Positions 8,255 through 36,072 of a stretch of 64,000 nucleotides of DNA are shown in pieces (within the stretch, counting starts at the first letter, position 1; every line of letters begins with the position of its first letter). Below the pieces are notes generated by a model. The model was given only the letters and a program-made list of their open reading frames with translations. It made no database searches and had not been told where the DNA came from. The position numbers were made by a program, and so were the translations under genes. The stretch is from the IMG/VR virus record IMGVR_UViG_3300045988_132703; one strand, 5' to 3'. The DNA comes from a virus.

Positions 8255-8300
8255 TAAAAAAAGAGAGAGGACTCTTAATTGAGTCCTCTCTTTTCGTTTT
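8255..8300. terminator. Bidirectional rho-independent terminator
   Basis: 11-bp stem AGAGAGGACTC/GAGTCCTCTCT (8264-74 / 8281-91), flanked by an A-run upstream and a T-run downstream. It lies between convergent genes. Confidence 0.7.
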
Positions 8301-9045
8301 ATCCCCATTGAAACATTTCAACAGGTTTACAGTTCCTAGTTCCATAACGCCCAATACAAATTGCATCTGCTTCATCTTCAGTAACATTTATATCGAACCA
8401 ATCTCTTACATGAACCTAAGCACTTCGTTTTTTATCAGTCCTTGTTTTACCTTTAATTCCAACATCAGCGCGCCAGGTAGACGAAGACACAACTTTAAAA
8501 TCTACGCCCTACTCGCGCAAAGAAACTTGAAGAACTCCGAGCAATTCAGCCAAAGCTTTATAAACAGTAACCCCATTTACGGCCTCGCCATTAAAAACTG
8601 ATTTTCCTTCAATTTTCTATTGATACTAAATATCTTCAAGTAAAACAATATCTGGTTTATAATTAATAATTAAATTAGTTAGCCACTAACGAATTTCAAC
8701 TAATCTATCAACAGTGTCTTTTGATTTAGCTTTAAAAACACCATACCGCAATAAAGTTTCGTCGTCCCATAATGACCAACCACTTATTTTTGTAGCCTAA
8801 TCTAGCGCGAGAATACGTCTAGCTTCCGTTTTTTGAATAGGAGACATATCCATTTTTTTCAAAGGGTTGGAATTACATATTGGACACTAAAATTTATTTC
8901 TAATTTTTTTATATGGCGCAATAACTAAATGACCTTCTGGGCATTCAAACTCCATGTCTGTTGATAAATTAATATATTCTTCGCTTCTAACTTTCCAACC
9001 TTTCTCAGCTAGATCAGAACGAATCTAATCTAGTGTTATTTTCAT
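8299..9045 (-). CDS. ruvC: RuvC-like Holliday junction resolvase with N-terminal Zn-ribbon
   Basis: ATG at 9045, TAA at 8299, 8 in-frame TAG. Motifs: ILALDQATKISGW (TAG supplies the Q), LLEDI, DEADAICIG. Confidence 0.7.
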
Positions 9046-9050
9046 TTTAA

Positions 9051-9827
9051 TTAGCGGCCTGATGAACCAAAGCCAGCTCCTCTATCAGTGGAATATTTTT
9101 CAAACTCTTCTTCAGAAATTTCTTGAGCCTGCATTTTAGGAGTTTGTTCAAGAATCATTTGTGCAATTCTGTCACCTTTTTTAATAACATAAGGTTCAGA
9201 ACCAGTATTCCAAACAATGACTCCGACCTCATTACGATAAGTGCAATCTACTGTACCTGGCGCATTTGCAACTCTAATGCCAGTTTTTAGACTCATACCA
9301 CTACGGGGGACTACGGAAATACGATAACCACCAGGAATAATCATTTTAACTCCAGTGTGAATAATCATTGTTTCACCGGGTTCAACAACTGCATCTTCAT
9401 TAGAATAAATATCTGCACCCGCGTCACCAATAGACTGATAAGCAGGAATAATTGCATCAGGAGTAACTTTACAAAATTTAACTGGAACCTTTTGGAAATA
9501 ACCATTAGTTTCCTTAATTTCTTTAAACATGGCTTGGCAGCGAGCCATAAATGAAAGAATCATTTCCTTTTTCTTGCCGGTACCAAAAACATTTTTTCGA
9601 GCCTGATCAACCCATTCATCAAATTGCTTATCATAATGATTAAATTCTTGAGGATTATTCGCGCGAGAATCAACAAGTACGCGAACAAAATCTTCACTAT
9701 TCATAATAGTTTCAATCAAAGAATTAATTTCAGTAATATCTCTACCGTCTTCAAAAGCTTGATCGGGAATCTGGACAAAATCATCAAAAAGTTTCAAAGG
9801 ATTGTCTTGTAAAAAATTCTCATTCAT
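9051..9827 (-). CDS. dut: dUTPase with N-terminal extension
   Basis: Motifs GDAGADIY, RSGMS, GTVDCTYRNEVG, GDRIAQMI, RGAGFGSSG. The ATG at 9827 is preferred over the track TTG at 9839. No TAG. Confidence 0.85.
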   Translation of the reverse strand: MNENFLQDNPLKLFDDFVQIPDQAFEDGRDITEINSLIETIMNSEDFVRVLVDSRANNPQEFNHYDKQFDEWVDQARKNVFGTGKKKEMILSFMARCQAMFKEIKETNGYFQKVPVKFCKVTPDAIIPAYQSIGDAGADIYSNEDAVVEPGETMIIHTGVKMIIPGGYRISVVPRSGMSLKTGIRVANAPGTVDCTYRNEVGVIVWNTGSEPYVIKKGDRIAQMILEQTPKMQAQEISEEEFEKYSTDRGAGFGSSGR

Positions 9828-9981
9828 AAGAGTTTTCAATCTCCTTTAGTTCTTGTAAAATTTTTCTTACTCCTTCTCGCCACATTGGCATATCAGGAGA
9901 ATATTCTCCATTTGCAATAGAAATATTTATCTTATTTTGAAGCTGTTTTAATTCAGCTTGTAAATCTTGAATAGTTTTCAT
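9820..9981 (-). CDS. Small hypothetical protein
   Basis: 53-aa ORF coupled by ATGA overlaps to both neighbours. Confidence 0.35.
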   Translation of the reverse strand: MKTIQDLQAELKQLQNKINISIANGEYSPDMPMWREGVRKILQELKEIENSYE

Positions 9982-11054
9982 AATCTAGGTCTCCATTTAC
10001 CACTATCTCGAACTTGGCGAACATTTAAATTAGCCAATATATACAAATTACGGTCAGCTTGGATTGTTTGATTTATCAATTTGCATCGCTCTTTGCCAGC
10101 AATATGATAAACTTCATCCATAACTGTTTTATTAGAAGTAGGATTCAATTTATAAGTAAGAATATTTGAAAAAGCTCTCATTAAAATCTCATAAACAGTT
10201 GCTGCACCATCCCAATCATCTGGTTTTAAATCCACTTTTATAGGAATTTTTACATTGCGCGAGGCGCCATAAAAATAAATATTTAATGCAGCAATAAGAG
10301 CTTTTCGACTAGTAGGTTTCTCATTTAAAGGCACATGATAACCACAGTAGCAATTAAAACAATCTATATATTTCATTAATTTAGTAATAGGTATCCCATC
10401 ATTATGAACTAAAAATAACGCCTATCTACTATCAGTTATTGCTTTACTATTGGAAGAATAATAAACAAATAAATCTAAATCTTTTATCTAGCTGCTGTGT
10501 AAAAATAATAATTCATTTCCTCTTGAAGTAAAATAGTCAAATATTTCTTTTGCATAAGAGCTATTATAAAAATTATAATCATATAAAATGATTTTTTGAT
10601 TAGAATAATTTAGTTTAGTATAATCAATTAATAACTCATTTCCATTTGTTATTCTTAATAAAATAAAATCTTCGCTTAAAATTTTCTTAACTATCTAATT
10701 TTTAGTTCTAGTGGTAAATACATTTTCGTGAGTTTTTACAAAAGTAGAATAAAATGTCCTATCAGGAGGACTATGTTCAACTTCTTCTGGAAGTTTTACA
10801 TAATTACCAGTAAAGCCTCTACCTACCCATTGTAAATTACTTTGCAATAAAAAAGAAGAAGGAAAGTCCTTCTAAGAAAGACTTTCCCTAGAAAGATAAA
10901 GTATATCATATTTTTCACTATCTTCAAAAGATAGGACAAATTCTACTATATCTCCTCTTTTTTTATGATAATAGGACAATTTCATCAATTCAAGAGATGG
11001 ACAAAACTTCGCAGGATTTAAAAGAATATCCTAATCAAATATTCCAATATACAT
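9978..11054 (-). CDS. Hypothetical protein
   Basis: ATG overlaps the dnaE TAA (TAATG). 5 in-frame TAG. Extends track ORF 9978..10376. Confidence 0.5.
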
Positions 11055-12468
11055 TAGTCTGTCCTCTCTGTTCTTAAAGTTAAATGTCCTGTTGAATAAT
11101 CAATATCTGAAATCAACGTAATTGGTTTATAGGGTGAAGTTTTATATGCTTTAGGAATTGCACTATCTCCACGACGAATACACTGAATAATAAGTTTATT
11201 TCCTCTTGTAAACCATGATTTTTCAGTAACCGTTTTTTTACCAGTTACTTCGTCTTTAATAAAAGACTGTTTATCATATTTTACAAATTGAGGTTTATAA
11301 ATTTTAACTTTTACAACTCCATACTGAGTTAATAGAGTTACAATGTTTTTCAGTTTATTTTTTTCAATTACTGTTCCTGCAATATTATGCAATTTATAAA
11401 TTGGAATTTCTTTTCCCTCTTTTGAAGTAAATATCGTTTCTGGAACTGGATCTTCTGGAAGATTAAAGAAATTATCAATTTCCCTTTCTTCAAAATCTAC
11501 TCCATCAAGTTCATGCGCACCATCATAATAACCAACGCTGTCCATTTCCCATTTAGGAATGAAACCAGAACAATATTTATTCCAAATCTCGTCAATGATT
11601 GCTTTATTTAAACTCTCTAAAACTTTAGGCTTTTTCAACCACGGACGAATTTTATCCATGTAAGCCTTATATATTTTTTCCATACGAGTTTGTTCAATCA
11701 TTGCTCCACTCTCTCCAAACTTAACTAAGTCTGGATTAAAATGTGCATTGAAAAATTCAAGAGAATAATCGTCAAGCAAATAATAAAGACCAGATTTACA
11801 ATTCTTTTTTAAGAATTTATTAAAATTATAAACTGCTGCAACATCTTGGTATTTATCTGGAATAATACCATACTTAATCAAAGTTGGCATATTAGCGAGA
11901 GTTAATTTATTTTTCGTTTCTGCAATACTTTCAATATAATTACGAAGAAGACTTTCGCGCGGGATAGAAGAAATTTTATCAAATGCTCCACATTTAATTA
12001 AATTAATAACTTGAAGTTTTGTACTTTTAACTTTCTTCAAGAAATCTTCAAAAGAATTATATGGCCGATTATCAATAATTTCATTTGCATAATCTGCACT
12101 AACTCTTGTGATACCTTTTAATCCATAAATAATTTTATGGTGCGCAACATCTGGAACAAAAGTATAATTTGAAGCATTAATGTCTGGAAGTTCAACATCG
12201 ACACCAAAATTCTTCATCTTGCCAATGGCAGAGCTAATTTTACCATATTGAACAGTTTTTGAAGATTTCTTTTTAGTATCTTCTTCATCTTCTAATTCAT
12301 CTTCAATATCATTGCCTAAAGTATAATCTTCATCTTTTGGATTATCTTCAAGACCACCACTATCAACAATTAAACAAGCCGTATCCCAATAAATTGGGTC
12401 ATAAAAATATGCCAAATTTAATTCTTGAATTGCTACTGTTGAATAAGCTATGGTATGAATAATACTAA
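11054..12468 (-). CDS. dnaE: DNA polymerase III alpha (DnaE-type), exon 4
   Basis: The junction restores GYS|FSIIHTIAYS (consensus GYGFNKSHSAAY). The exon starts after an intron-terminal G. Confidence 0.8.
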
Positions 12469-12778
12469 CTTGCCAAACATAATTTCTTATGCCATTTAAA
12501 ATGTTTTGGTCTGGACTATACCATCATCTTTAAGAAAAGATGTCCTTATTATAGTCTCTGAACGTCTATCTCAATTTAATATATTTTCTATAAAAAATAT
12601 ACTATTGGATATTTCGCTGCGTTTGATTATCCAATCTTAAACGATTTTACCTTACCGTTCCCATTACTGAACGCCGCAAATTAATTACTTAATTTGTTTG
12701 GTTGTTTAAGCTCTAAGGAGTTCCCCGCAATTTAAAGGATTTTCGATATACATCACTGTATAAAGTCGCTTAATTTTA
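12469..12778 (-). mobile_element. Group I intron (family A), ORF-less, in dnaE
   Basis: The 5' exon ends in U and the intron ends in G. Core motifs are TTAAATTGCGGGGA (P4-like), GCGTTCAGTAATGGG and ATAGTC. Stops occur in all frames. Confidence 0.7.
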
Positions 12779-13427
12779 ACGAATAACCCATCTGCTTTTC
12801 GGCTTGAGACCAAATCCAATCAATAATGTCTTTAGAAGTTCCTAATTCTTTTCCCCGTTGATACAAATTTTCTTTTAAAGATGCAATTTCTTTAAATTTC
12901 TTTTTAGCAACAGTTTTACGGACTTTATTTGCTTCATCAACATTATAATTTGTAAATGGTAACATAACCGCGCGCATAAGAGATTCTTGGCTGTCCAATA
13001 CACCACCAAATTCCTTCATAAACTCATAAAGTTTATCTTTTTCTTCAGTAGTAGCATTAAGATTATAAATATCTCTTTTTAATTTTTCTGGATGCTCTTG
13101 GTATTCAACAAATTCCTCAACAGGAGTTTTTTGTCCTTTTTCTGGCATTAATCGCATCAAACTATTTGACTGCGCAAGAGTAAGCAAATTTTTTGGTTTA
13201 ATCTGTTTCGCTGTTTGCAATCCAACAGGAGTATCAAATTGGAACAAACTAATAATTTTATTGTCGCCAACAAGCTTCCACATTTCCGGATTATCGTAGT
13301 CAATAACATCTGGATTTAGATATTTCATATAAGTAGCTTTTAAAGAACCTTGCCACTCCATTAAACCATCATTAAGAAGTAATTCCATTGTGGTACGGAT
13401 TCTATCCAAACCATCAATAGTTAAGAA
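12779..13427 (-). CDS. dnaE: DnaE-type polymerase, exon 3
   Basis: The junction gives IKYD|FLTIDGLDRI (consensus KFDFLGL). Confidence 0.75.
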
Positions 13428-13852
13428 CCTTTATACCCTCGGTTTCCCGATATTTATTAGGGGAGTAGACTATCTCTTCATCCTATTGCTAGGAGTCTCG
13501 CACTTCGATTTAAAGGGATTTCACCTACCAGAGTTTCACTGGCCCTACTTCTATTGACATTTATAAAGCTGTCTAAAGAATAGTCGTTACACCTTCTAGA
13601 TTAATCTAGCTTGGCACGGTATTACCATATTATTTAACTTAGGCTTTTACCGTTAGCCGCAAAGCGACACCCTTAAATAAGGTTCACGAGATTATAATAT
13701 ATTATTACTAATATATCAGACATTTGATATATTTAGAAATTTTAGCATATCTTGAGTTTTTCTTTCTAGAGTAATTTCTGAGTTAGTTGAAAGTAAATAC
13801 TAAACAATATTTTTAGTTCTAATATACTAATCATCCATAAATATATACCTTT
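13428..13852 (-). mobile_element. Group I intron (family C), ORF-less, in dnaE
   Basis: Its ends are near-identical to intron 14339..15125: GAAGAGATAGTCTACTCCCCTAATAAATATCGGGAAACCGAGGGTA at the 3' side and GGCTAACGGT...GGTAATACCGTGCC at the 5' side. Confidence 0.7.
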
Positions 13853-14338
13853 ATCGTACTTAATATGACCCGCGTACTCTTCATCATGTAATTCCCATTG
13901 GCTACATTTTACTCCTTTAGGACTCTTCATCGTCGCGCCAAGTTCTGTAAATTTATCGTTTGTTAAGATAATACCAGAAGCATGAACTCCACGGCGACTA
14001 ATCAATCCCTCAATGTTTTTTGCAACATTCCAAATATCTTCATGTTTGCCCATTTCTGCAATAAATTGCGGAATAGGCTGATACCCCTTTTCTTCGTCTC
14101 CGTAATAACATTGCTGTAAACTTCTAACAAAACCGCGGTCAATAGGAATTAAAGAACTAAGAAAACTTCCTAATTCTGGTTCGTATCCTAAACCACGTGC
14201 AGCAGTTTGCAATGCTGCTTTTGAAGTTTCAGTGCCAAAAGTTGCGACACTCGTTAATTCTCCGCCAATGGACTCAAAGTAACGACGAACTGCTTCAATA
14301 AATCTTTCACGCTTGGATGCCTGAGAATCAATATCGAC
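13853..14338 (-). CDS. dnaE: DnaE-type polymerase, exon 2
   Basis: Begins VDIDSQASKRERF. The junction RAELAD|VDIDS matches the palm PDxDxD motif. Confidence 0.8.
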
Positions 14339-15125
14339 CTTTAATTACCCTCGGTTTCCCGATATTTATTAGGGGAATAGACTATCTCTTCATCCTATTT
14401 CTAGGAGTCCTGCGCTTCGAACGGTGATTAAATCTGCTCTACTACTTAGTCGTTACACCACATCTATCCTATAATCTTTACAATGTCCATATTTTCTTAA
14501 AGAAGATATGCTACAGTCAAAATATTCTTTAGCATATTCTGCGGCAGCTTTCTTATTGTCGAAGATTTTTATAATAGAGTTAGTTGAAATTTGAACTAAT
14601 GCACATTTTATCTAATTGCGTGCTGGTCCCATTGTAGAATAAGAATCATATAAATTATATTTTCTATCACACCATTCAAGATTTTCTAATTTATTATTGC
14701 TTCTATTCTTATCTTTATGATTTACCTCTGGTAAATTATCTGGATTAGGAATAAAAGCTTCTGCAACAAGTCTGTGAACAGCGTAATGTTTTGCTATATT
14801 ATTTTCACATAAAGAAATATATTGATAACCAGCCATATTTGTCCAAGCAGACATTTCTTTAGGCTTTTTATATTTATATGAAATAACTCTTCCATCATCG
14901 GTTATCCCATAATCTTCGTGATTTTTAATTCTTTTTTCCATTAATTTTCACCTCTAATCAAGAAGTAAAAATTTATCAACTTTCCTCTAAGAAAAATAGA
15001 TACGGCACGGTATTATCTTTTCGGATTTCCACCGTTAGCCATTTTAAATGACACGCGATAATCAATCGCTTCACAGGATTTTCTATTATGATATTACTAT
15101 CATAAGCGGACTATGATATAAGTTA
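14339..15125 (-). mobile_element. Group I intron (family C) carrying an HNH homing endonuclease, in dnaE
   Basis: U before the 5' splice site and G at the 3' end. It shares its core with 13428..13852, and the ORF sits in a peripheral loop. Confidence 0.75.
14453..14941 (-). CDS. HNH homing endonuclease (intron-encoded)
   Basis: VHRLVAEAFIPNP...VNHKDKNRSNNKLENLEW HNH motif. Continues through the TAG at 14612 to the TAA at 14453. Confidence 0.8.
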
Positions 15126-16512
15126 ATCCGCGAGTTCTGCACGTCCTCTTGAACAAAATCTCCAATAAGGAAGTGCAGTTGGACTTTTCAATGGATCGCG
15201 CTGAATAATGTCCATCAAATATGCGCTTAACATTGAACCTACTGAACCACGCCAAGGACCGACTAAAGAGTCACCATCTGTCCAAGCAATATCAATAACT
15301 TTACGAACGGTGATAAAATAAGCACTTAAACGCTCTTGAATTTTTTCGGATACAATCCACATTTCTTGAAGTTCTTCTTCAAGTCTATCAAGATGAATTT
15401 TGTCTAAACAATCTAATTCAAGCCCTTTTTGAATAATACTATAAAGAAAGAATTTATCTTCTTCATATTCACTATTCAAATACTTATTTAAATATTCTCG
15501 TTCGCCAATGATTTTTTGTGGCTCACAGTGGATTAAATGCCAATCAAGAGGAATACGAGGAACAATTTGCTTATATGCCAAATCATATTCTTCAATCATT
15601 GAACAAACTTTATTACTATTTTCAAAAATTTGAGTAATAAAATCGTCATCAAAATAATTAAGTTTCTCTCGAATTTCCTCTGCACTCATCATATAAGTGT
15701 AAGCGTAGAAATCATCAGTCTCTCTATCTCCATCGCCAGAATTAAGAAAACTCTTATGAATTTCTCTATCCTCTTGACGTAAATAGTGGCTATCAGTCGT
15801 AACTGTGATATTAAAATGATTCTTTTTTGCAAACTGCGCAGCTAAAGTATTAAAAGTAACTTGTTCTTTACTCAGCCCAGGCTGAATTTCAATAAAGAAA
15901 TTTTCTTTACCAAAAATTTGTTCACACCAATGGCAAAAATTTAATGCTTTTTCATACTGTTGATTTAAAATCAAATAATCGAAAAAACTACCTAAGCAAG
16001 CTGTTTGTGCAACCACATGTCCAGAATTATTTCCGATAATTTCTTCAATGTCTGAATAATAAGTTGGAACACGTTCCATAAATTGATAAAAACTTCTATT
16101 CCAAGCTCTTGAAGATAATTCTCGAAGTTGTTTATTTCCTATTTTATCTTTTGCTAATAAAATAAAGTGCCAAAATTTATCTTCACCTTTAATAAAGTTT
16201 TTTGCACTTAAATTATCACGGCAAAGATAAATCTCATTTCCTAATACAAGTTTAAAATTTTTAACTTGATTAGCCCATTTATCATTTGGTTCTGTCTCTA
16301 AAATCTTTTTCGCCTTTGATTTTAAAGATTTCATGTATTTTAAAGCTTTGATATAACCGGAAACACTCTCGTGGTCAGTGATTGCTACACCCGTTAAACC
16401 CAATTCCAAAGCATAATCAATTAATTTATCTTCTTTGATAATACAATCGAGCATACGAATGTTAGACCCACTAAGAATAATGGGTATGATTATGTCCACT
16501 AAAATATCCCAT
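15126..16512 (-). CDS. dnaE: DnaE-type polymerase, exon 1 (PHP domain), with a recoding site near codon 13
   Basis: The RBS AGGTGA serves ATG 16512 (frame A: MGYFSGHNHTHYS-TAG). The rest of the PHP domain (NIRMLDCII...AITDHES) is in the +1 frame (track ORF 15123..16499). Confidence 0.75.
16464..16476 (-). other. Candidate translational bypass / +1 frameshift site (UCU UAG UGG G UCU)
   Basis: Take-off UCU (16476-74) is followed by UAG, and a matching landing UCU (16466-64) lies 10 nt downstream. The hop gives HNHTHYS|NIRMLD. Confidence 0.45.
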
Positions 16513-23704: not shown

Positions 23705-23713
23705 TAAAATTTC

Positions 23714-25544: not shown

Positions 25545-25614
25545 AGTTAAAAGACCAAAGTTGTCTTTAATACACTATTTCATCGGAAACACCTCTGTTT
25601 GATTTTCTATAATT

Positions 25615-28589: not shown

Positions 28590-28976
28590 TTACTCCTTTA
28601 TTTCTGAAAAGTCAATTTTACTAAATACAAAATCTTTACGAGGTTGAACATCCTCGCCCATCAAATCATAAAGCATTTGAATAGAATCATCATCTGAGAC
28701 AAGAATATCCATTCGTTGATTCTCAGGATTAAACATAGATTCTTTTGCTTTTGCTGCACTCAATGCGCCCAAGCCTTTTTCACGACTAACATCGCCTTTA
28801 ATTTGCGCTCGAGCTTTGTTAAACTCTTCATCGCTGTAAAAATAAGTGTGTTTCTTACCATTTGTAACAATGTAAAGAGGAGAGCGTAACCAGCATAGTC
28901 TATGCTCTTGAATGAACTCAGGAGCAAGATATTGTAGTGCAGACATAATAAGCAAACCAATATGATAACCATCGGA
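28590..28976 (-). CDS. Type IIA topoisomerase subunit B (GyrB/ParE-like), exon 4
   Basis: The junction SDAD|SDGYHIGLL matches TDADVDGSHI. Confidence 0.75.
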   Translation of the reverse strand, partial: SDGYHIGLLIMSALQYLAPEFIQEHRLCWLRSPLYIVTNGKKHTYFYSDEEFNKARAQIKGDVSREKGLGALSAAKAKESMFNPENQRMDILVSDDDSIQMLYDLMGEDVQPRKDFVFSKIDFSEIKE

Positions 28977-29229
28977 CATTTATACCCTAGCTTTCGCTAT
29001 ATTTCAAGGGATTAGACTATACAATCTCAGTAGAGTCAGTATTATAGTCGTTGAACGTTTTTCCTTTTAAGGAAACTTCGCTGCGCTTGATTACCCAATC
29101 TTCAATGATATTACTGTACCGTTCCCGTTACTGAACGCCACCAAAATAATTACTTACTTGGTTTAGTTATTGAAGCTCTAAGGGACTTCCCGCAATTTAA
29201 CTGATTTAGTGCGGACTCAACTTTTGGTT
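28977..29229 (-). mobile_element. Group I intron (family A), ORF-less
   Basis: Near-identical blocks to the recJ intron, e.g. GAT|TAACC(A/T)AAAGT...GAGTCC...TTAAATTGCGGG. Confidence 0.7.
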
Positions 29230-29380
29230 AATCCGCATCCGAACAAATAGCAATTCGTCCATAACGTAGTTTAGAAGAATTGTATTTTCCGGGGATAATA
29301 TTCATCGCACTTAGGAGCAATTTAATTTCTTCATTTTCAAAAATTTTATCCTCGCTATTGGATAGGCAATTAATAATTTT
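29230..29380 (-). CDS. Topoisomerase subunit B, exon 3 (50-codon micro-exon containing a +1 frame change)
   Basis: KIINCLSNSEDKIF (frame 0) followed by ENEEIKLLLSAMNIIPGKYNSSKLRYGRIAICSDAD (+1). Together they align residue-for-residue with [27 protein letters not shown]. Confidence 0.65.
29336..29344 (-). other. Candidate +1 frameshift site AUU UUU UGA
   Basis: T6 run (29343-38 on the minus strand). The frame-0 TGA comes immediately after UUU, and tRNA-Phe can re-pair on UUU after a +1 slip. Confidence 0.45.
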
Positions 29381-29612
29381 CGCGTAATCCATTATTTCTA
29401 ATGGTGCTGACTATCTTTTAATAGAAAATTCTATTACAGCCATTTCGAACTATGTATCAATAATAGTCCTACGAGCCGATTAAGGCATCTAGTCGATACA
29501 GGTATTTTATTCCCACGGGATTGCCTTGCCTGCATAGGTTTAGGTTTCCCCGTTAGCCGCAATGAGCGACCCCACTGATAAGTGGCAAAGCTGTATTAGG
29601 GCAATTTTGTTT
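29381..29612 (-). mobile_element. Group I intron (family B), ORF-less
   Basis: Splits PL(R/K)G|K. The 3' end GGATTACGCG parallels the dnaB intron's GGATTAAACG. Confidence 0.6.
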
Positions 29613-30596
29613 ACCCCTAATGGCCAAAATTCCGTAATGCTTTTCATCTCGCGCAATGGCCATAGCTGCCGCAGCAGAATTTCCTTCTACAATTAAGAGA
29701 GTTGAATCTTGCCCAAGATATTCTGCATCAGACAATTTATCAGAAGAAAAAACTTTTCTCTTTTGATTCTTCTCAATATCTTTAGTTGCATTTAGAACAG
29801 CTGTTCTTGCTTTTTCTGCTGCTTTTTCTGCTTTTTCTTCCTTGGTAAGAAAATCTTCAATTTTCTTTTCTTCATTGGGATATTGTAAGCAGAACTTCTC
29901 AAATCCTTCGCTAAAAGCTTTACTTGCAAGACTGCGCAATTCTGGATTGTTAATCTTCGTTTTTGTTTGATTAGCGAAAGAAGGATTAACAACTTTACAA
30001 CTAACTGCATAAACCAAACCAGTTCGTGCAAGCTCGCCAGTTAAACTTTTAATTTTCTTTTGAAGAGTTTTAGTAATTGAAGTTTTTAGACCAGTGATAG
30101 GAGTACCACCTTCAGCATTAGCAACACCATTTGTGAAACAATAAAAATGTTCATTGCGCGCTTTCGTCCAAACACAAGCAATTTCAACTGAATTTGTTCC
30201 ATCGCTTAAAAAGTAAGAAATCGGATTTTCATGAACTTTATTTGCAGCTTTTTGCATAACCAAATCCATAAGACCATTTTCACTTTTATAGGTAATACTT
30301 TGTGCTGGAGAGACAGTTTCATCTCGAAGTTCAAAAGTCAATCCTTTGGTTAGAAAACTTAAATTTTCACAAGTCTTACATAAATGCTCAAATTTAATTT
30401 CAATAGGCTCAAGATTAAAGACTTGCGCATCTGGCTTATATTTTACAAAAGTACCGTTGGGCAAATTTTTATCATTATTCACTTCGGTATAATCAATCAT
30501 ATTTCCGCGTTCAAAACAAATTGAAGCTACTCGATTATCACGAACTGACACAACTGAAAATTCTTCAGATGAAAGGCAAGTAGCTTTCGCTCCAAT
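29613..30596 (-). CDS. Topoisomerase subunit B, exon 2
   Basis: IGAKATCLSS (junction GLNG|IGAK matches GLHGVGAS). Toprim EGNSAA. Confidence 0.8.
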
Positions 30597-31504
30597 CTTA
30601 AATATTCAACAAGAGTCGTTAATTCCTGCCCGCGACTTTACTCGCTGCTCATAGTTTCCTATGAGAATAGACTATATCTTTTTCAATCCCATTTCGACTC
30701 ACTTGAGTCTACTCTACTAATTATCTCTTGATAATTTATACCTAATAATTTATTCCAATCTGGACATTTATTTTCAAGAAGATATTTTTCGATAGTCGTT
30801 GAACTTTCATCTATAATATAACCAAATTCTCTCATTTTGTTAATTCTAAAAAGTATTGCTTGGCGTAGCGCTTCGTCTGCGCCGTATTTTCCAATTGAAA
30901 AACTTTTTTGTTTTTGCAATTTTCTTTTGTCATTATATCTGGTATCATTTTCAAAAGTAGACCAGCGAACCCGGATTCTTGGAGTTCCTCTAGCCCCTTT
31001 TTCTATGCTAATGCCATTAAAATTAAAAGAATTTGATTTAATTGGTTTAGAGTTCTTTTTATTTTCAGAACAGGTAACTAATCTTAAATTGGACTTTTGA
31101 TTATTTAATCCATTGCCATCTATGTGATCAACTATGATTTTAGGATTGGTTACTTTCATAATATAACGATGTGCTTTTCCATAAGTATCATGCTGAGCAT
31201 AATCAGTTCTTGAATTATGCAATTCTTTTGGTACCAAATACCAACCACTCTTAGGAAAAGTTTCATAATCCTCATCGTCTAAAAGAATCTCTTTTCCGCA
31301 TTTCATTAAAAATTTTTTCATCTATAACCTCTTTATAGGGTTATATTATAGATGCTTAGCTGCGTTAGGTTATCCAATCTTTAACGATTTTACTATACCG
31401 TTCCCGTTACTGAACGCCATTTAATTATTACTAATTAAATTTAGTTGTTAAAGCTCTAAGGAATTTCCCGCAATTAAAGATTTTTTAGAACAGCTATGAA
31501 GTCA
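30597..31504 (-). mobile_element. Group I intron (family A) carrying an HNH-AP2 endonuclease
   Basis: Family A 5' core, ORF, then an AAGATATAGTCTA 3' core. U/G boundaries hold. Confidence 0.7.
30683..31321 (-). CDS. HNH endonuclease with AP2-like DNA-binding domain (intron-encoded)
   Basis: VDHIDGNGLNNQKSNLRLVTCSENKKN, followed by an AP2-like GISIEK...RIRVRW segment. No TAG. Confidence 0.75.
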   Translation of the reverse strand: MKKFLMKCGKEILLDDEDYETFPKSGWYLVPKELHNSRTDYAQHDTYGKAHRYIMKVTNPKIIVDHIDGNGLNNQKSNLRLVTCSENKKNSKPIKSNSFNFNGISIEKGARGTPRIRVRWSTFENDTRYNDKRKLQKQKSFSIGKYGADEALRQAILFRINKMREFGYIIDESSTTIEKYLLENKCPDWNKLLGINYQEIISRVDSSESKWD

Positions 31505-31843
31505 ACCGTTCAAACCAACTGCAAACTGATAATCTTTTGATGTAAATTTACCGCCAGTATGCGCATGAGAATAAATAGCTTCAAGAACATTTTCGCCATT
31601 TTCTCTTGTTCCAAAAGGAACTCCACGCCCATAATCTCTTACAGAAATGTAATTATCAGGATAAAGTACAATTTCAATTTTATTACCAAATCCCATAATA
31701 AATTCGTCAATTGAATTAGAAATAATTTCTTGGATGCCGTTGTACACGCCTTCCATATCGTTGGAACCAAGATACATCGGGATTCTCATACGAACAGCTT
31801 CCTTAAATTGAAGCGTTTCGATAGAGTTTATATCATAACTCAT
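31505..31843 (-). CDS. Topoisomerase subunit B, exon 1 (GHKL ATPase N-terminus)
   Basis: EIISNSIDE, VRDYGRGVP, GGKF...GLNG. Confidence 0.8.
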
Positions 31844-31921: not shown

Positions 31922-32464
31922 TTATTTTCTTTTTAATTCTTTAAAAATTAAATTATTTGGAAGAAAATTTCTACAAATGTAGATGCTCCCAAATGACGCA
32001 CCTTTGCTGACTTCCGTTTGTTCTATATCCTTAAAATATTGAACTCTTTTGTCAAATATTAAAGCTTCACAATCTTTAATATAAGGAAATCTTTTTTGCC
32101 CCTGTAAAGTTGGGAGTGGTAATAACATTGCATAAGGCCGATTCAATTCGTATAATCTTTTTAAAACTTCATCTTTACAAGAAAATGGTGGATTAGAAAT
32201 GATATAGTCGTAAGGTTCATCAGGTTCATAAGAAAAGAAATCTTTTCCTTCGTCAATATGGGAATGAATCACTTTATATCCAGCTGCTGAAAATACTTTT
32301 ACAAATTGACTTTCTTCTTTATCAAAAGGACACCAAATAGTATAATTTGATTTATTTTCTTTATCTAAATACTATAGTAAAGGTTCTACAGCATATGCTG
32401 GAGTGTAGTATTCATCTGATTCTTTTGTACTTTTCGCTGTTAAATATCCTTTATTAGTTGGCAT
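31922..32464 (-). CDS. DNA N6-adenine methyltransferase-like (NPPF)
   Basis: EYYTP and ISNPPF motifs. 1 in-frame TAG. Extends track ORF 31922..32272. Confidence 0.6.
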
Positions 32465-32501: not shown

Positions 32502-32933
32502 TTATAATTCATCTAAATAGCCCGCTGCTTGTGCCGTTCTACTTCTTTCAATTTGCTCTAAGTGCACTGCCGCGAACAAATCAGAATAATCTTTGCTAAA
32601 ACGTAATTTAGTCAAAAGTTTTAATCCACTCTTTTGACGGAAAATATTTGAATCAGCCTGCTTAATATCACCATCAAAGAAAATCCGTGTGTTTTCACCG
32701 CAACGAGCAACCAATAACTTCACATGATCTTCTGTTAAATTTTGTGCTTCATTAACAAGAATAATCGAATTATCAAAACTGCGCCCACGAGCAATAGAAA
32801 TGGGTAGCAATTCTAATTGTCCTTTTTCGTACATCTGGATTACTTCCTATTGACTAATTATATCACATAATGTACCAATGTATGGCAAAATCTTATCGAA
32901 CATTTCCGCAACTACTTCATCTTTCGATAAAGG
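32502..32933 (-). CDS. phoH: PIN-PhoH ATPase, exon 3
   Basis: ARGRSF...ILVNEAQN...FFDGDIKQAD. 1 in-frame TAG. Confidence 0.7.
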
Positions 32934-34169
32934 CTAGACTATATCTTTAAGTTTACAAAGAGGTTAATAAAAACTAATATTTATCATATTTTCTCTGAAG
33001 AAAACAAGTGCTGTTAGAATAGAGATAATTTAAAATTGAAAGAATCTAAATTCTCCCACGCCAATGACAGTTATAAGCATTGCCTTTTTCAATTTTATTA
33101 TGAAAATTTTTACCAATAGCTTTATCTATAGCTAATTGGAAATCTTGAACAAAACTTTCATAATATGCGCAAAAGCCGATTGAAGCGTCATTTTGATTTA
33201 CAATTGAACAAATTCCATCTCCATCATATAATCCACGAAGATAATGATGGAATAGTTTTTCTGGAATTTTATTTGATAAGTGAGTTAAAGAATAAGTTTT
33301 ATTAGGAATTATACCATATTGGGCTAAATCCTACGCCATTTTCGCAGAAGCCCATTCGATAGTAAAACATTCTTTATTGGCTCTTTTATCTTCTTGAATT
33401 TTGCAATCTAAACAAAGAATCTTTTTAATCCATTCTAAAGTTGCTCGATCATCAACTTGTAAACTAATTCCAATTGTAAAACTATTACGACTTTTTAAAT
33501 TTTTAACATAACCATCAGTAGTTAATAATCCCAAAAGATAAGCTTTTTCTTCAGTGTCAATTGTTTCAAAAAAATCTTCAATAATATTTTTATTAACTTT
33601 TTTCCAAGTGACTTTGTCTATTTGATTTTCTTTTAATACTCGATTAATTAAAGTAATATCACAATTATATTTTCTAGCAATTTCGTTAATTCCAGAATGG
33701 CAACGATACATATTTATTATATCTTGCTATTGTTCACTAGTAAAAAATTTTTTTCTAAGCCCTCTTTTAATTTCAATTCCCATAGATTTTAATGCTTTAG
33801 AAATTGTATCTGGTTTTTTATGATATTCTTTTGATAATTGCTAAATAGAAAATCCTTTTTGATATTTATCAATTAATTCTTCTAAAAGAACGTTATTTAT
33901 CATATAAATCACCTCAAAAAAGAAGTAATTTATCTAATAAGTCACTCTAAACTTACTCTGCATTTCGCTTTCGCTACTCCCGGCCAAGGGATAGTCGTTG
34001 AACCTTTTCCTCTAAAGGAACTTGGCTGCTGATTGCCCAATCTAGTTTATTTTCAAACATTCACAATTATTGTTTCCAATTTTGTTGTAGTTAAACTAGC
34101 TCTAAGGGGTTTCCAGCAATTAACAGAGTTTTTCAATACATATCGCTATGTAAGGGAGCTATTTAATTA
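32934..34169 (-). mobile_element. Group I intron (family D) with a LAGLIDADG endonuclease
   Basis: GGT|TAAATAGCTCCCTTA at the 5' end, as in 34293..35364. TTGCTGGAAACCCCTTAG block and GATATAGTCTAG 3' end. Confidence 0.65.
32953..33903 (-). CDS. LAGLIDADG homing endonuclease (double-motif) with N-terminal HTH
   Basis: LLGLLTTDGY and LRGLYDGDG motifs. 5 in-frame TAG join the track ORF 33331..33711 to flanking coding sequence. Confidence 0.75.
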
Positions 34170-34292
34170 ACCCGGCATAGTTCCTAATTCCATAGAATTT
34201 TCATTCTAACTATTATTAGGAACATAAACAATTTTATCTATATTTCCTTTCTATAATTCTTGTAAGGCGTAAGAAGTTAATAGGAAACTTTT
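34170..34292 (-). CDS. phoH: PIN-PhoH ATPase, exon 2 (41-codon micro-exon)
   Basis: The junction GSFGTG|KSFLL completes Walker A. Ends ELGTMPG (consensus LGFLPG). 2 in-frame TAG. Confidence 0.65.
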
Positions 34293-35364
34293 CCTTTATA
34301 CCGCTGTTTTCACAGTACTTTAACACCAATTCAATAGTCGGAGTAGACTATATCTTCTTCGTTATTATCCTCGAACAATATGCTTGCCTTTTCATATTTT
34401 CGAGCTAAAGATATTTTACTATCTTTATATAAAACAGTAGCCAACTGTTTTACTAAATGTTTTTTATTTATCCTGAAATGATAAGCTGTACCATAATTTT
34501 CAATTATAGTAGTAACAGGCTCGTCTAAAAATTGATTGCATAAATTTCTAAAATCTTCACAAATACTTTTATGGTAAGAACAGAAATCTATTTTATAACT
34601 TTTATCTTTCTATTGGTAAATACTTCCATCTCCATCTAACAATCCTCTCATGAAAGGTATTATAAAATTTGAAGGAATATTATTTGGAAGATGCTTTGTT
34701 TTATAAGTTTTTTGAGGAATAATCCCATATTTAGCTAAGTCATTGGCCATTTTTTGACTTCTAAATCTTAGAACTGCACATTCTTTATTTTCTCTTTTGT
34801 CATAAGTTAATTTTGAGTGCATATTTATTTCAGTTCTAAGCTTTTCTAAAATATCAATATCGGATATTTTTAAAGAAATGATGATTGACGGAAATCTTTT
34901 TCCATCTGAGTCTGGAACTATACTTCCATCAGTGAAAAATAATCCTAAAAAATAAGCTTTTTCTTCACTGTTGATATTTTCAAAATAGTCTTCTTTTAAA
35001 AGACGATTTTTTGATAGACCCTTTCTTTTAATAGGTATATTATATTTTAATAAAACATTTTTGATAGCTTCCGTACGACAATGGTAATTTTGAGCTAAAA
35101 AACTTATTGTCATACCTTCTTGATTATATTTTTCACAAATTATTTTTTCTGTATTTAAATCAAATTGTCTCATTTTTCTCCTGGATTGGCAAAACGAAGT
35201 GCGGCATTTCATAGTTTAAAAACCACTATTATTATTTTAGTCGTTGAACCTTCTTATTGGCTAGATAAGCTTGGCTGCTGATTGCCCTCGTCTTTACGTT
35301 AGGGGTTTCCAGCAATTAACCGCATTATTCAATATATATTACTACATAAGGGAGCTATTATTTA
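34293..35364 (-). mobile_element. Group I intron (family D) with a LAGLIDADG endonuclease
   Basis: Interrupts Walker A. Shares core blocks with 32934..34169. Confidence 0.65.
34331..35212 (-). CDS. LAGLIDADG homing endonuclease
   Basis: FLGLFFTDGS and MRGLLDGDGS motifs. Continues through the TAG at 34612-10 to the TGA at 34331. Confidence 0.75.
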
Positions 35365-36072
35365 ACCCGTGCCAAAGCTACCTCCAGCATAAATTATATT
35401 AGCTTTACTATAAAGGGCGTCTATTAAACAAGCCTATTCAATATTTCGAGCCTAAATTTTATTACCATAACTTATTTCAATAGATTCTCTTTTTATTGGT
35501 TTAATTAAATGATTTCTATAAACAAGAACATCTTTTACATTATCATCCTCAATAATAACTATATACTAATTTTCAAATAAAGTCAAATTAGTAAAATCAT
35601 TAATATATAATTCACTAATTAATTCATTATCTTTAGGAATATATAATCTTAATATTCCTGTATAAATTTCATTATTTTTAATATAAGATTCATACTATAC
35701 TTGTAAAGCTATACATTTAACTTGTAAATTAATATCATTGGTGATTAAAGTATAATTATTATCTTTACAGAGGTATAATAATTGATTATCAATAGAAAGA
35801 TTATTATAATTAGAAGTATCAATAAAATGAATTTGTGTATCTCTTTCTTCTATCTTTTCTTGGTACTTCTTTTCTTCGTCTTTCTCTGTTGGTTCGTCTT
35901 TTTCAAGCAAATCTCGCAATTTTCTTAGAACAATCCGTGCTTTCTTTGCACGCTCGCCCTGTGTAATTTTAATACGATCAAGTTCTTCAAGGACTGACCA
36001 AGCAATTCCAATATTCTCGTGAGTGACAATATCTGGATAATCAATTAAAACGTTGGTATCAATTATAAACAT
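35365..36072 (-). CDS. phoH: PIN-PhoH ATPase, exon 1 (PIN domain + Walker A start)
   Basis: AAGGAGG RBS before ATG 36072 (MFIIDTNVLID). 4 in-frame TAG. Ends GGSFGTG. Confidence 0.7.

What the first reader, a model, noticed from the sequence alone, without database searches (positions are those of the whole stretch)
8299..36072. TAG codons also sit inside essential replication-module genes, in a mosaic with TAG-free neighbours
The usual model places recoded stops in late genes only. Here dnaB has one TAG upstream of its Walker B region (20747-45). The recJ-like gene has one TAG (18028-26). PIN-PhoH has 7, the MTase has 1, and the RuvC-like gene has 8. In contrast dnaE, primase, both topoisomerase subunits, ligase, dUTPase and the AAA_24 ATPase have none. 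A DnaB truncated at that TAG would be non-functional. So either suppression is already active when replication starts, or these single TAGs act as a translational throttle.
Basis: partly seen in the sequence, partly recalled or inferred. Interest (0 to 1): 0.65.

Follow-up and report, generated by a model that had tools for sequence, protein, structure and literature searches.

The report
Amber codons inside phage replication genes
A large gut-type phage that reads the stop codon TAG as glutamine really does carry TAG inside its helicase and RecJ-like genes, but these are young, drifting synonymous changes within an already described kind of recoding. The more unusual feature is a TAG at the start of its polymerase gene that ribosomes probably have to jump over.

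Summary
Twelve group I introns were mapped using intron-less alleles in sibling genomes. After splicing, dnaB has one in-frame TAG (20747) and the recJ-like gene has one (18028). PIN-PhoH has 7, the MTase 1 and the RuvC-like gene 8. DnaE, primase, gyrA, gyrB, ligase, dUTPase and AAA_24 have no sense TAG. The mosaic is not chance (chi-square p = 6e-12).

TAG means Gln. It aligns with Gln 7.7-fold above background. At the dnaB and recJ sites, sister lineages carry CAA or CAG. Sibling genomes carry a tRNA(CUA) 0.8-1.9 kb past the window's last tRNA.

The two single TAGs are clade-specific and recent. Among strains, TAG, CAG and CAA interchange at Gln sites in recJ, yorF and gyrA. This argues for working suppression plus leaky purifying selection, not site-specific throttles.

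At gene level the hierarchy recurs across about 15 TAG-recoded lineages: gyrase and DnaE about 0-1%, DnaB 8%, RecJ 17%, PIN-PhoH 21%, RuvC-like and hyp358 about 50%. TAG-rich genes overlap TAG-free genes in the same predicted operons.

Borges et al. already reported variable recoding of replication genes, so this is a new member of a known kind.

Unexpectedly, dnaE begins with MGYFSGHNHTHYS, then TCT-TAG-TGGG-TCT. This is a conserved candidate translational hop.

The parts
19732..21758 (-). dnaB (YorI-type helicase). Exon 1 is 21758-20664, the group I intron is 20663-20425, and exon 2 is 20424-19732. There is one sense TAG at 20747-20745 (codon 338).
   Evidence: All 8 siblings plus L010 and L011 lack the intron. 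Spliced ORF is 595 aa. Pfam DnaB_C. Alignments to YorI and Geobacillus DnaB. The site is TAG in 8/8 siblings, CAA in L098 and GGA in L010 and L011.
16610..18671 (-). recJ-like DHH exonuclease (YorK-type). Exon 1 is 18671-18450, the intron is about 18449-18128, and exon 2 is 18127-16610. There is one sense TAG at 18028-18026 (codon 108).
   Evidence: Pfam DHH, DHHA1 and RecJ_OB. The column is Q in 33 homologs and E in 21. It is CAG in L003/L013 and CAA in L010 and L098.
11054..16512 (-). dnaE (YorL-type polymerase).
- Start ATG at 16512.
- Frame-A codons 1-13 (MGYFSGHNHTHYS) run to the take-off codon TCT at 16476-16474.
- TAG at 16473-16471 plus TGGG (16470-16467) forms a 7-nt gap.
- Landing codon TCT at 16466-16464.
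- Exon 1 continues to 15126.
- Introns: 15125-14339 (with an HNH ORF at 14941-14453, 1 TAG), 13853-13429, and about 12780-12471.
- No sense TAG among 45 Gln codons.
18668..19735 (-). Primase (YorJ-type), 0 TAG. It overlaps the dnaB stop and the recJ start.
8299..9045 (-). RuvC-like Holliday junction resolvase. 8 TAG among 12 Gln codons.
   Evidence: Pfam RuvC. PHROG 827 and 159..
9051..9827 (-). dUTPase, 0 TAG.
9978..11054 (-). hyp358, a protein of unknown function with a weak match to a PHROG labelled radical SAM domain. 5 TAG of 11 Gln codons. Its start overlaps the dnaE stop.
   Evidence: The homolog in L011 has 11/17 TAG and the one in L010 has 2/10.
32502..36072 (-). PIN-PhoH. Exons are 36072-35365, 34292-34170 and 32906-32502. 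There are 7 sense TAG (35697, 35568, 35454, 35436, 34253, 34208, 32849). Two group I introns, 35364-34293 and 34169-32907, carry LAGLIDADG ORFs with 1 and 5 TAG.
31922..32464 (-). Small MTase-like gene with an NPPF motif. 1 TAG at 32374. The gene is absent from L011.
28590..31843 (-). gyrB-like topoisomerase subunit. Four exons: 31843-31505, 30596-29613, 29380-29231 and 28976-28590. Three introns, the first with an HNH ORF. 0 TAG.
25669..28588 (-). gyrA/parC-like subunit. Three exons: 28588-28379, 28149-27862 and 27525-25669. 0 TAG. The TAG at 27573 lies in an intron.
   Evidence: One sibling (L002/L012) has TAG at codon 458, where the window has CAG.
21763..25583 (-). YorH-like (21763-22551), AAA_24/Sak4 (22652-23635), YorF-like (23714-24601) and MarR (24723-25046), all with 0 TAG. 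hyp107 (25260-25583) has 1 TAG.
36155..38536 (-). ATP-dependent ligase (36155-37264, 0 TAG), free-standing HNH homing endonuclease ORF232 (37261-37959, 4 TAG) and DUF5662 (37970-38536, 0 TAG). The genes overlap or abut.
22584..22612 (-). Consensus sigma-A-type promoter-like site (TTGACA-17-TG-TATAAT, 12/12) ahead of yorH-dnaB-primase-recJ. Similar sites lie at 38589-38561 (12/12), 31893-31865, 25153-25125 and 24665-24637 (11/12 each), and 16613-16585 (10/12 with TG, ahead of dnaE).
   Evidence: These are pattern matches only.
63207..63791 (+). tRNA-His, tRNA-Leu(CAA) and tRNA-Gln(UUG), the start of a tRNA array. In sibling genomes the suppressor tRNA(CUA) follows 0.8-1.9 kb further on, which is beyond the window end.

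Best explanation
What it is.
- The window comes from a phage of about 176 kb and 32% GC. It looks like a phage of Bacillota and reads TAG as glutamine.
- Its replication module is homologous and syntenic to SPbeta yorF-yorL and carries 12 group I introns.
- The in-frame TAGs in dnaB and the recJ-like gene are genuine sense codons.

How the two TAGs arose.
- They are young, synonymous replacements of CAA or CAG.
- They are decoded by a phage tRNA(CUA). In sibling genomes this tRNA lies just past the window end, as its own small transcription unit.
- So suppression must already work while the host-promoter-driven replication operons are translated (inferred).

What sets TAG density.
- It is set gene by gene, not operon by operon.
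- DnaE and both gyrase subunits are under strong purifying selection against TAG.
- Primase, Sak4 and DnaB are under weaker selection.
- RecJ-like behaves like an average late gene.
- RuvC-like resolvase, PIN-PhoH, hyp358 and the homing endonucleases carry TAG at or above late-gene density.

How it most likely works (inferred).
- The yield of each protein scales with (suppression efficiency)^(number of TAGs).
- Proteins needed at full yield, while the suppressor is still scarce relative to RF1, stay TAG-free.
- DNA-cutting enzymes are held back until suppression is strong.
- Single TAGs, like those in dnaB and recJ, are slightly deleterious or near-neutral leaks. They come and go.
For: TAG means Gln.
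- TAG in homologs aligns to Q 7.7 times above background.
- PIN-PhoH codon 213 is Q in 37 of 39 homologs.
- The dnaB site is CAA in L098.
- The recJ site is CAA in L098 and L010, and CAG in L003.

Suppressor tRNA.
- tRNA(CUA) has U1-A72 and G73. It sits in 5 of 5 sibling genomes examined, with a promoter-like site and a terminator.

Turnover among 9 genomes of 92-97% identity.
- TAG alternates with CAG or CAA at recJ codons 77, 98 and 108, yorF codons 74 and 195, and gyrA codon 458.
- The 67% relative L011 has TAG at dnaB codon 25/26 and recJ codons 32 and 324/325 (numbering differs by one between its own and window coordinates). L010 has none in either gene.

Selection.
- TAG/(TAG+CAG) is 0.05 in core genes, 0.58 in plus-strand genes and 0.87 in accessory module genes. 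DnaE keeps 13 CAG.

Recurrence across 16 representatives of TAG-recoded lineages.
- gyrA 0/192, gyrB 1/172, DnaE 3/427, AAA_24 7/176, primase 9/166.
- DnaB 22/290, YorF 13/134, RecJ 48/288, PIN-PhoH 37/175.
- RuvC 12/24, hyp358 18/38.
- Stratified permutations show RecJ enriched, and DnaE and gyrase depleted (0 of 20000).
- DnaE, RecJ and DnaB are equally diverged (38-42% identity), so protein conservation does not explain the difference.

Not explained by operons.
- TAG-rich genes overlap or abut TAG-free genes: dnaE/hyp358 at 11054, ORF232/ligase at 37261-37264, and dUTPase/RuvC with a 5-nt gap.
- No predicted terminator lies between them in an intergenic position.
Against: - There are no expression data. 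Promoters and terminators are pattern matches only.
- The suppressor tRNA itself is not in the window. In siblings it is flanked by TAG-containing ORFs, not by a standard-code 'early' block.
- The 'core' versus 'accessory' split was partly drawn after seeing the counts.
- The lineages in the cross-lineage table are not fully independent. Some TAG columns are shared, for example DnaB 30 and 116, and RecJ 167, 312 and 324.
- gyrase seems to have been exchanged horizontally: gyrB is 38% identical to L011 against 79% for DnaE. Part of its TAG-free state could therefore be history.
- hyp358 is TAG-rich but is not a known nuclease.
- DnaB is needed in stoichiometric excess over DnaE, yet tolerates TAG.
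Confidence: 0.6

Rival explanations
1. The single TAGs in dnaB and recJ are selected translational throttles or timers. They would delay or cap helicase and exonuclease synthesis until the suppressor is present.
For: The dnaB TAG is fixed in 8 of 8 siblings and the recJ TAG in 7 of 8. DnaB carries at least one TAG in 12 of 16 recoded lineages and RecJ in 14 of 16. RecJ is significantly enriched within the module.
Against: Positions are not conserved between lineages. The nearest outgroups have CAA or GGA at these sites and no TAG in either gene. Strain L003 swapped the recJ TAG for CAG and gained two others. The DnaB share equals the module average (p = 0.34). Fixation across only 3-8% divergence carries little information.
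Confidence: 0.15
2. The pattern is pure history with no selection on TAG. TAG-free genes would be recent imports from, or frequently recombined with, standard-code phages or hosts. TAG-rich genes would circulate only among recoded phages.
For: gyrB and gyrA are far more diverged from L011 (38% and 47%) than DnaE (79%), and are closer to standard-code L019 and L020 (60-63%). Homing endonucleases and introns move between genomes. The MTase is an indel.
Against: DnaE shows no sign of exchange, yet has 3/427 TAG over 11 lineages while retaining many CAG codons. The same hierarchy recurs in lineages with different gene histories. Low-frequency TAG polymorphisms do arise in gyrA and yorF but are rare.
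Confidence: 0.1
3. The whole module is transcribed late, or by a phage polymerase after the code switch. In that case TAG in dnaB and recJ poses no timing problem, and the mosaic reflects translation level only.
For: There are no expression data. The suppressor tRNA in siblings sits among TAG-containing ORFs.
Against: Perfect or near-perfect sigma-A promoter-like sites with extended -10 precede each unit of the module. Core genes avoid TAG about 17-fold relative to tail and lysis genes. That avoidance is hard to explain if all were translated under full suppression.
Confidence: 0.1
4. Annotation artefact: the TAGs lie in unrecognised introns or wrong frames.
For: The module has 12 introns. Several TAGs in raw stop-to-stop ORFs do lie in introns or upstream of starts: 27573, 32936, 29452, 29413, 36102 and 9084.
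Against: Intron-less alleles define every junction. The dnaB and recJ TAGs sit inside blocks aligned to YorI, YorK and dozens of homologs.
Confidence: 0.01

Closest known systems
Code-15 (TAG to Gln) recoded gut phages: Borges et al. 2021/2022, Peters et al. 2022, and the phAss-1 group of Babkin et al. 2023
   Same: In-frame TAG aligns with Gln. There is a phage tRNA(CUA). TAG is dense in tail and lysis genes and sparse in replication genes. A recoded intron homing endonuclease sits inside an early gene. Borges et al. explicitly note variable recoding of replication machinery. The phAss-1 paper notes strain-to-strain differences in which genes, including dUTPase, carry TAG.
   Different: The module here is SPbeta-type (DnaE/YorL, YorI, YorK), not crAss or Lak. 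No close relative was found in the phage collection. TAG-rich and TAG-free genes are interleaved with overlapping start and stop codons inside single predicted operons. The gene-by-gene hierarchy (gyrase and DnaE, then primase and Sak4, then DnaB, RecJ, PIN-PhoH, and finally RuvC-like) is reproduced over about 15 lineages. I did not find this hierarchy stated in the papers read.
Bacillus phage SPbeta replication module (yorF-yorG-yorH-yorI-yorJ-yorK-yorL)
   Same: Same gene order and homologs: YorF 26%, Sak4/YorG 28%, YorI 30-40%, YorJ 32%, YorK 37%, YorL 36-43% identity.
   Different: SPbeta uses the standard code and has none of the introns seen here in these genes. The window adds gyrase, PIN-PhoH, ligase, dUTPase and a RuvC-like gene.
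Streptomyces phage phiHau3 terminase: 10-nt frame-disrupting inserts that begin with the rare codon UUA (PMC10732093)
   Same: This applies to the dnaE 5' site. A short frame-disrupting insert begins with a slow or conditionally decoded codon. The flanks match the contiguous sequence of relatives that lack the insert. A zero-frame stop follows shortly after, so cognate decoding aborts the protein and bypassing makes it.
   Different: The A-site codon is UAG rather than UUA. The gap is 4-8 nt. The gene is dnaE. The take-off and landing codons are Ser UCN. There are no experiments here. The site occurs in both standard-code and TAG-recoded phages.
Phage T4 gene 60 translational bypass
   Same: [quoted passage not shown] The site is in a replication-type gene of a phage rich in homing endonucleases. 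It is polymorphic as a cassette.
   Different: The gap is 4-8 nt instead of 50 nt. Take-off is at codon 13-20, so any nascent-peptide signal must be very short. No common stem-loop could be demonstrated.

Membership tests
TAG-to-Gln (code 15) recoded phage | In-frame TAG inside conserved protein-coding genes, with no in-frame TGA or TAA | tested here: met
   ORF length gain occurs only with TAG as sense. Twenty-four module CDSs are open after splicing. The endolysin has 6 TAG.
TAG-to-Gln (code 15) recoded phage | TAG positions correspond to Gln in homologs | tested here: met
   Q enrichment is 7.7-fold (39 of 157). PIN-PhoH codon 213 is Q in 37 of 39. RecJ codon 108 is Q or E. Strains show a CAA/CAG/TAG series at the same sites.
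TAG-to-Gln (code 15) recoded phage | Phage-encoded suppressor tRNA with anticodon CUA | tested here: inconclusive
   None is present in the window's 64 kb. One is present in all 5 sibling genomes examined, 0.8-1.9 kb past the tRNA-Gln that ends the window. The window's own copy was not seen.
TAG-to-Gln (code 15) recoded phage | The host uses the standard code | not testable with these tools
   The host is unknown. A Bacillota affiliation is inferred only from SPbeta, Enterococcus and Staphylococcus phage homologs.
Late-gene-restricted recoding model (code switch before late translation) | Structural and lysis genes are enriched in recoded stops | tested here: met
   Plus-strand tail, endolysin and fibre genes have 70 TAG of 397 Gln codons. 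Core replication genes have 2 of 198.
Late-gene-restricted recoding model (code switch before late translation) | Replication and early genes are compatible with the standard code | tested here: not met
   DnaB, RecJ-like, PIN-PhoH, the RuvC-like gene, hyp358, the MTase and the homing endonucleases need TAG read-through. The same holds in L011 and in about 14 other lineages.
SPbeta-type replication module | Collinear YorF, Sak4, YorH, YorI, YorJ, YorK and YorL homologs | tested here: met
Group I introns | Match to the group I covariance model, and precise absence in otherwise collinear alleles | tested here: met
   Two matches lie above Rfam gathering score and eight below it. All 12 have intron-less alleles. 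The dnaB intron itself has no Rfam match. It is defined only by the intron-less alleles and by similarity of its ends to the gyrase introns.
Programmed translational bypassing (T4 gene 60 and phiHau3 type), for the dnaE 5' site | [quoted passage not shown] | tested here: met
   Nine gap variants were found. Take-off is TCT or TCC. Landing is TCT, TCC or TCA. The product always restores HxHxxYS-N[ILF]R exactly as in contiguous homologs.
Programmed translational bypassing (T4 gene 60 and phiHau3 type), for the dnaE 5' site | A slow-to-decode or stop codon sits in the A site at take-off | tested here: met
   TAG follows the take-off codon in all nine variants. The viral and metagenome pattern scans imposed TAG. 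The regex used for the DnaB-anchored loci (L001-L088) also allowed TAA and TGA and found none.
Programmed translational bypassing (T4 gene 60 and phiHau3 type), for the dnaE 5' site | Stimulatory RNA structure or nascent-peptide signal | tested here: inconclusive
   Split alleles fold more stably than contiguous ones. In several, the take-off region pairs with the start-codon region or heads a hairpin. RNAalifold found no shared structure.
Programmed translational bypassing (T4 gene 60 and phiHau3 type), for the dnaE 5' site | A junction peptide is demonstrated in the protein product | not testable with these tools
   This needs a reporter assay or mass spectrometry.

The most novel reading that the evidence does not exclude
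The replication module may be wired to the genetic-code switch in both directions.

ON with the suppressor. TAG-laden nucleases need the suppressor tRNA and are switched on by it. These are the RuvC-like resolvase, PIN-PhoH, the homing endonucleases and, across lineages, RecJ-like.

OFF with the suppressor. The polymerase gene dnaE starts with a 13-codon frame that ends in TCT-TAG-TGGG-TCT. Full-length DnaE requires peptidyl-tRNA-Ser to hop over the 7-nt gap. Reading the TAG as Gln runs into TAA two codons later and aborts DnaE. Rising suppressor levels would therefore turn DnaE synthesis down while turning the DNA-cutting and late functions up.

Even without that regulatory link, the 'Ser-TAG-gap-Ser' site would be a new, widespread natural family of short translational hops. 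It has nine gap variants, in both recoded and standard-code phages.
Probability: 0.2. Interest if true: 0.8.

Novelty: new member of a known kind. Interest (0 to 1): 0.45.

Why it matters
The assigned finding shows, with exon-exact gene models and population data, that a code-15 phage of the SPbeta replication type depends on amber suppression for its own helicase. It also shows that TAG, CAG and CAA behave as interchangeable Gln codons in replication genes.

This constrains the timing of the code switch: the suppressor must act before or during replication. It replaces the picture of 'standard-code block versus alternative-code block' with a gene-by-gene gradient inside operons. That matters for gene callers that assign one code per block.

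The recurrent hierarchy, with polymerase and gyrase TAG-free and nucleases TAG-rich, gives a testable rule for which proteins a phage holds back translationally.

The by-product may matter more. A conserved TAG-headed 4-8 nt gap interrupts the catalytic PHP motif of dnaE. It offers a compact, natural and probably portable system to study ribosome hopping and its competition with RF1 and suppressor tRNA.

Tried and rejected
- I first assumed a crAss-like phage, from the low GC, TAG recoding and introns. The closest homologs are SPbeta, Enterococcus and Staphylococcus phage replication genes, so this was rejected.
- Megablast of 24.7 kb against the phage collection found only 58-nt intron-core matches.
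- Six-frame ORF-length ratios were too noisy to call the code of 21-kb loci. I replaced them with counts of in-frame stops inside tblastn alignments.
- phmmer of DnaB against PDB found nothing. A profile search was needed.
- Protein conservation does not explain TAG avoidance. DnaE, RecJ and DnaB are equally diverged.
- For the dnaE site, a simple +1 frameshift is disfavoured. The variants shift by 7, 8, 10 or 11 nt, which covers both non-zero frames. Each always restores the exact motif only if the second Ser codon is the landing site.
- A downstream start codon is rejected as a general explanation. L080 and L081 have no start codon in that frame, and most variants lack the Met.
- A sequencing error is excluded by more than 20 independent assemblies.
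- A search for AGY-TAG versions gave only chance hits.
- RNAalifold gave no consensus structure.
- TAG shows a 5' positional bias in late genes: 28 of 69 fall in the first fifth. The bias disappears when the first 15-20% of each gene is excluded, so it may reflect my start-codon calls.

Full report
**What the window is.** The 64-kb window has 32% GC. Reading frames lengthen markedly only if TAG is treated as sense. GC skew and ORF orientation split it into a minus-strand block at 8.3-38.6 kb, flanked by plus-strand blocks. The plus-strand blocks encode tail proteins, an endolysin with six TAGs, fibres and glycosyltransferases.

The minus-strand block is a replication module. Its best annotated homologs are the SPbeta genes yorF, yorG (Sak4/AAA_24), yorH, yorI (DnaB-type helicase), yorJ (primase), yorK (RecJ-like) and yorL (DnaE-type polymerase), in the same order. 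So this is not a crAss-like phage. The closest sequences are IMG/VR contigs of 98-179 kb at 92-97% nucleotide identity. No deposited phage genome is close.

**Exon structure.** The module is interrupted twelve times. Rfam finds group I introns at ten places, two of them above the gathering score. More decisively, for every interruption at least one sibling genome is collinear without it. This fixes the junctions to within a few bases.

| Gene | Intron coordinates |
|---|---|
| PIN-PhoH | 35364-34293 and 34169-32907, both with LAGLIDADG ORFs |
| gyrB | 31504-30597 (HNH ORF), about 29612-29381, about 29230-28977 |
| gyrA | 28378-28150, 27861-27526 |
| dnaB | 20663-20425 |
| recJ | about 18449-18128 |
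| dnaE | 15125-14339 (HNH ORF), 13853-13429, about 12780-12471 |

All spliced CDSs are open.

**The observation.** DnaB has 1 TAG (20747), RecJ-like 1 (18028), PIN-PhoH 7, MTase 1 and RuvC-like 8. There are none as sense codons in DnaE, primase, gyrA, gyrB, ligase, dUTPase or AAA_24.

The dnaB TAG is 3 codons upstream of EYVFYDY. That block aligns to the Walker-B strand VVIDYL of Geobacillus DnaB. The recJ TAG lies in the conserved block GK-x-HG.

The mosaic is statistically real:
- Heterogeneity gives chi2 = 92 and p = 6e-12.
- TAG makes up 1.0% of Gln codons in the TAG-poor genes (2/198).
- It makes up 17.6% in plus-strand genes (70/397).
- It makes up 38.8% in the TAG-rich module genes (26/67).

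**TAG means Gln, and a suppressor exists.**
- TAGs in homologous loci align to Gln 7.7 times more often than expected. Window TAGs sit on columns that are Q in most homologs, for example PIN-PhoH codon 213 in 37 of 39.
- At the two sites in question the nearest outgroup (L098, 93% DnaB identity) has CAA in both genes. Strain L003 has CAG at the recJ site.
- The window has only tRNA-His, tRNA-Leu and tRNA-Gln(UUG), at its right end.
- In five sibling genomes the array continues, and a tRNA with anticodon CUA follows 0.8-1.9 kb later.
- That tRNA has U1-A72 and G73, like the phage tRNA-Gln. In L092 it has its own TTGACT-17-TG-TATACT site and a terminator.

**Are the single TAGs devices or drift?** They are clade-specific.
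- The dnaB column is GGA (Gly) in the 87% and 67% relatives, CAA in the 93% relative, and TAG only in the window clade.
- The 67% relative L011 shows the same gene-level mosaic but at other sites: dnaB codon 25/26 and recJ codons 32 and 324/325 (numbering differs by one between its own and window coordinates). DnaE is 0/41 and gyrA 0/22.
- L010 has no TAG in either gene.
- Within the nine genomes of 92-97% identity, TAG alternates with CAG or CAA at recJ codons 77, 98 and 108, yorF codons 74 and 195, and even gyrA codon 458.

This is the signature of a codon that is functionally synonymous with CAG when these genes are translated. It arises repeatedly and is usually removed. It does not fit a conserved regulatory site.

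**A reproducible gene hierarchy.** A profile-guided scan recovered 78 loci with this module. Many use the standard code, with zero TAG. About 15 lineages are TAG-recoded. Summed over one representative each, the TAG share of Gln codons is as follows.

| Gene | TAG / Gln codons |
|---|---|
| gyrA | 0/192 |
| gyrB | 1/172 |
| DnaE | 3/427 |
| AAA_24 | 7/176 |
| primase | 9/166 |
| DnaB | 22/290 |
| YorF | 13/134 |
| RecJ-like | 48/288 |
| PIN-PhoH | 37/175 |
| RuvC-like | 12/24 |
| hyp358 | 18/38 |

Stratified permutations, excluding the window, show RecJ enriched, and DnaE and gyrase depleted (none of 20000 permutations as extreme). DnaB is average (p = 0.34).

DnaE, RecJ and DnaB are equally diverged between lineages, so protein conservation is not the explanation. 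gyrase shows signs of horizontal exchange, which may contribute to its TAG-free state.

**Not an operon effect.** Consensus sigma-A-type promoter-like sites with extended -10 precede the units of the module. Examples are 38589-38561 and 22612-22584 (both 12/12), 31893-31865 (11/12) and 16613-16585 ahead of dnaE. Terminator-like hairpins separate the units.

Inside the units, TAG-rich and TAG-free genes overlap or abut:
- DUF5662 (0 TAG), HNH ORF232 (4 TAG) and ligase (0 TAG).
- dnaE (0), hyp358 (5), hyp53 (0), dUTPase (0) and RuvC-like (8).

Differences in TAG density therefore act at translation, if they act at all. The TAG-rich set is dominated by DNA-cutting enzymes: resolvase, PIN-PhoH, and the HNH and LAGLIDADG endonucleases. 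Across lineages RecJ joins this set. hyp358 is an exception of unknown function. This grouping is my inference.

**Comparison with the literature.**
- The late-only expectation is stated by Peters et al. (PMC9523058).
- Borges et al. (10.1101/2021.08.26.457843) already report that alternative-code use is variable in replication machinery and mostly alternative in Lak phages. They also report that an intron homing endonuclease inside an early gene is preferentially recoded.
- Babkin et al. (PMC10607447) report strain-specific recoding of genes such as dUTPase in a related Bacillota-type group.

The finding is therefore a well-documented new member of a known kind. The added value is the intra-operon interleaving and the cross-lineage hierarchy.

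**An unexpected TAG in dnaE.** While fixing the dnaE start I found that the gene begins at ATG 16512 with MGYFSGHNHTHYS, the first metal-binding motif of the PHP domain. It then reads TCT TAG TGG GTC TAA. The rest of DnaE (S-NIRMLDCIIKEDK...) starts at TCT 16466, 10 nt downstream of the first TCT and in the +1 frame.

Two siblings (L013, L014), L011 and most other homologs encode ...HTHYSNIRMLDC... contiguously.

The same interruption occurs in nine architectures, from 25 distinct sequence contexts in viral and metagenomic contigs:
- TCT-TAGG-TCT
- TCT-TAGT-TCT
- TCT-TAGCG-TCA
- TCT-TAGGG-TCT
- TCT-TAGTGGG-TCT and TCT-TAGTGGG-TCC
- TCT-TAGCGTA-TCT
- TCC-TAGGTAAG-TCC
- TCT-TAGCGAAA-TCT

The evidence for a programmed hop is comparative:
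- The displacement is 7, 8, 10 or 11 nt, which covers both non-zero frames.
- The gap always begins with TAG.
- The second codon is always a UCN Ser codon, identical to the first in 7 of 9 variants.
- Joining the two Ser codons always restores the universal motif exactly.
- Some variants have no start codon in the downstream frame.
- The 21-nt core is invariant between the window and L019, although DnaE is only 61% identical and flanking synonymous sites differ.
- The site occurs in standard-code relatives (L019, L020) as well as recoded ones.

The simplest reading is a short programmed translational hop of peptidyl-tRNA-Ser over a TAG-headed gap. This is the logic of T4 gene 60 and, more closely, of the UUA-headed 10-nt inserts in the phiHau3 terminase (PMC10732093). 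dnaE is not mentioned in the 2016 recoding review.

Structure predictions are suggestive but not conclusive.

In this TAG-suppressing phage, reading the TAG as Gln leads to TAA two codons later. Suppressor abundance could therefore lower DnaE output. That is a hypothesis, not a result.

**Verdict.** The dnaE hop candidate deserves its own follow-up.

Noticed in passing
window 16512-16452 (- strand); also L010, L019, L020, L080, L099-L142 and L172: The dnaE initiating frame (MGYFSGHNHTHYS) ends in TCT-TAG-TGGG-TCT, and the gene continues 10 nt downstream in the +1 frame. Nine gap variants (4-8 nt, all starting with TAG and all flanked by Ser UCN codons) interrupt the same PHP-motif position in diverse phages, both standard-code and TAG-recoded. 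This is a candidate programmed translational hop.
   Followed up: partly
window 8299-38566 (- strand): Twelve group I introns lie in 30 kb, inside dnaE (3), gyrB (3), gyrA (2), PIN-PhoH (2), dnaB (1) and recJ (1). Each is present or absent among genomes that are 92-97% identical. Four carry HNH or LAGLIDADG ORFs. Short intron cores match introns of Staphylococcus, Listeria, Bacillus and Enterococcus phages at 88-97% identity.
   Followed up: partly
window 58302-61042 (+ strand): This is a compositional island of three TAG-free genes with about 40% GC and CAG preferred over CAA, inside the TAG-rich plus-strand block. The third gene (59912-61042) is a divergent adenylosuccinate-synthetase-like protein (Pfam PF00709, E = 2e-21; PDB PurA, E = 5e-11) with an atypical P-loop (NGGAQRGHT). 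A PurZ-like role is possible but was not tested.
   Followed up: partly
window 52732-54999 (+ strand), with 42345-43442, 55074-55397, 61116-63135: This is a teichoic-acid-type glycerophosphotransferase fused to a GT1 domain (755 aa). It has 0 TAG among 20 Gln codons, although its neighbours are TAG-rich. Several GT2 genes and a small gene that looked like a cytidylyltransferase by eye (not searched) are nearby. This may be a cell-wall-modifying cassette.
   Followed up: no
plus-strand genes of the window: In-frame TAGs cluster in the first fifth of late genes (28 of 69; Mann-Whitney p = 5e-4 against CAA and CAG positions). The signal vanishes when the first 15-20% of each gene is excluded. It may be real 5' gating or an effect of my start-codon calls.
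   Followed up: partly
L014 (IMGVR_UViG_3300045988_138203), dUTPase codon 206 = window 9212: One sibling has TAG where all the others have TGG (Trp) in the dUTPase. This is the only TAG polymorphism in the module that is not a Gln-codon swap. It could be a W-to-Q substitution or a deleterious allele.
   Followed up: no
L092 13434-13682 and equivalents in L091, L095, L096 and L097: The suppressor tRNA(CUA) was checked in L092. There it sits as a stand-alone unit with a promoter-like site and a terminator, but it is surrounded by TAG-containing ORFs rather than by a standard-code block.
   Followed up: partly
window 38561-39104: Two perfect (12/12, TG-extended) divergent sigma-A promoter-like sites lie at 38589-38561 (-) and 39076-39104 (+). 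They sit at the boundary between the replication module and the plus-strand block.
   Followed up: no
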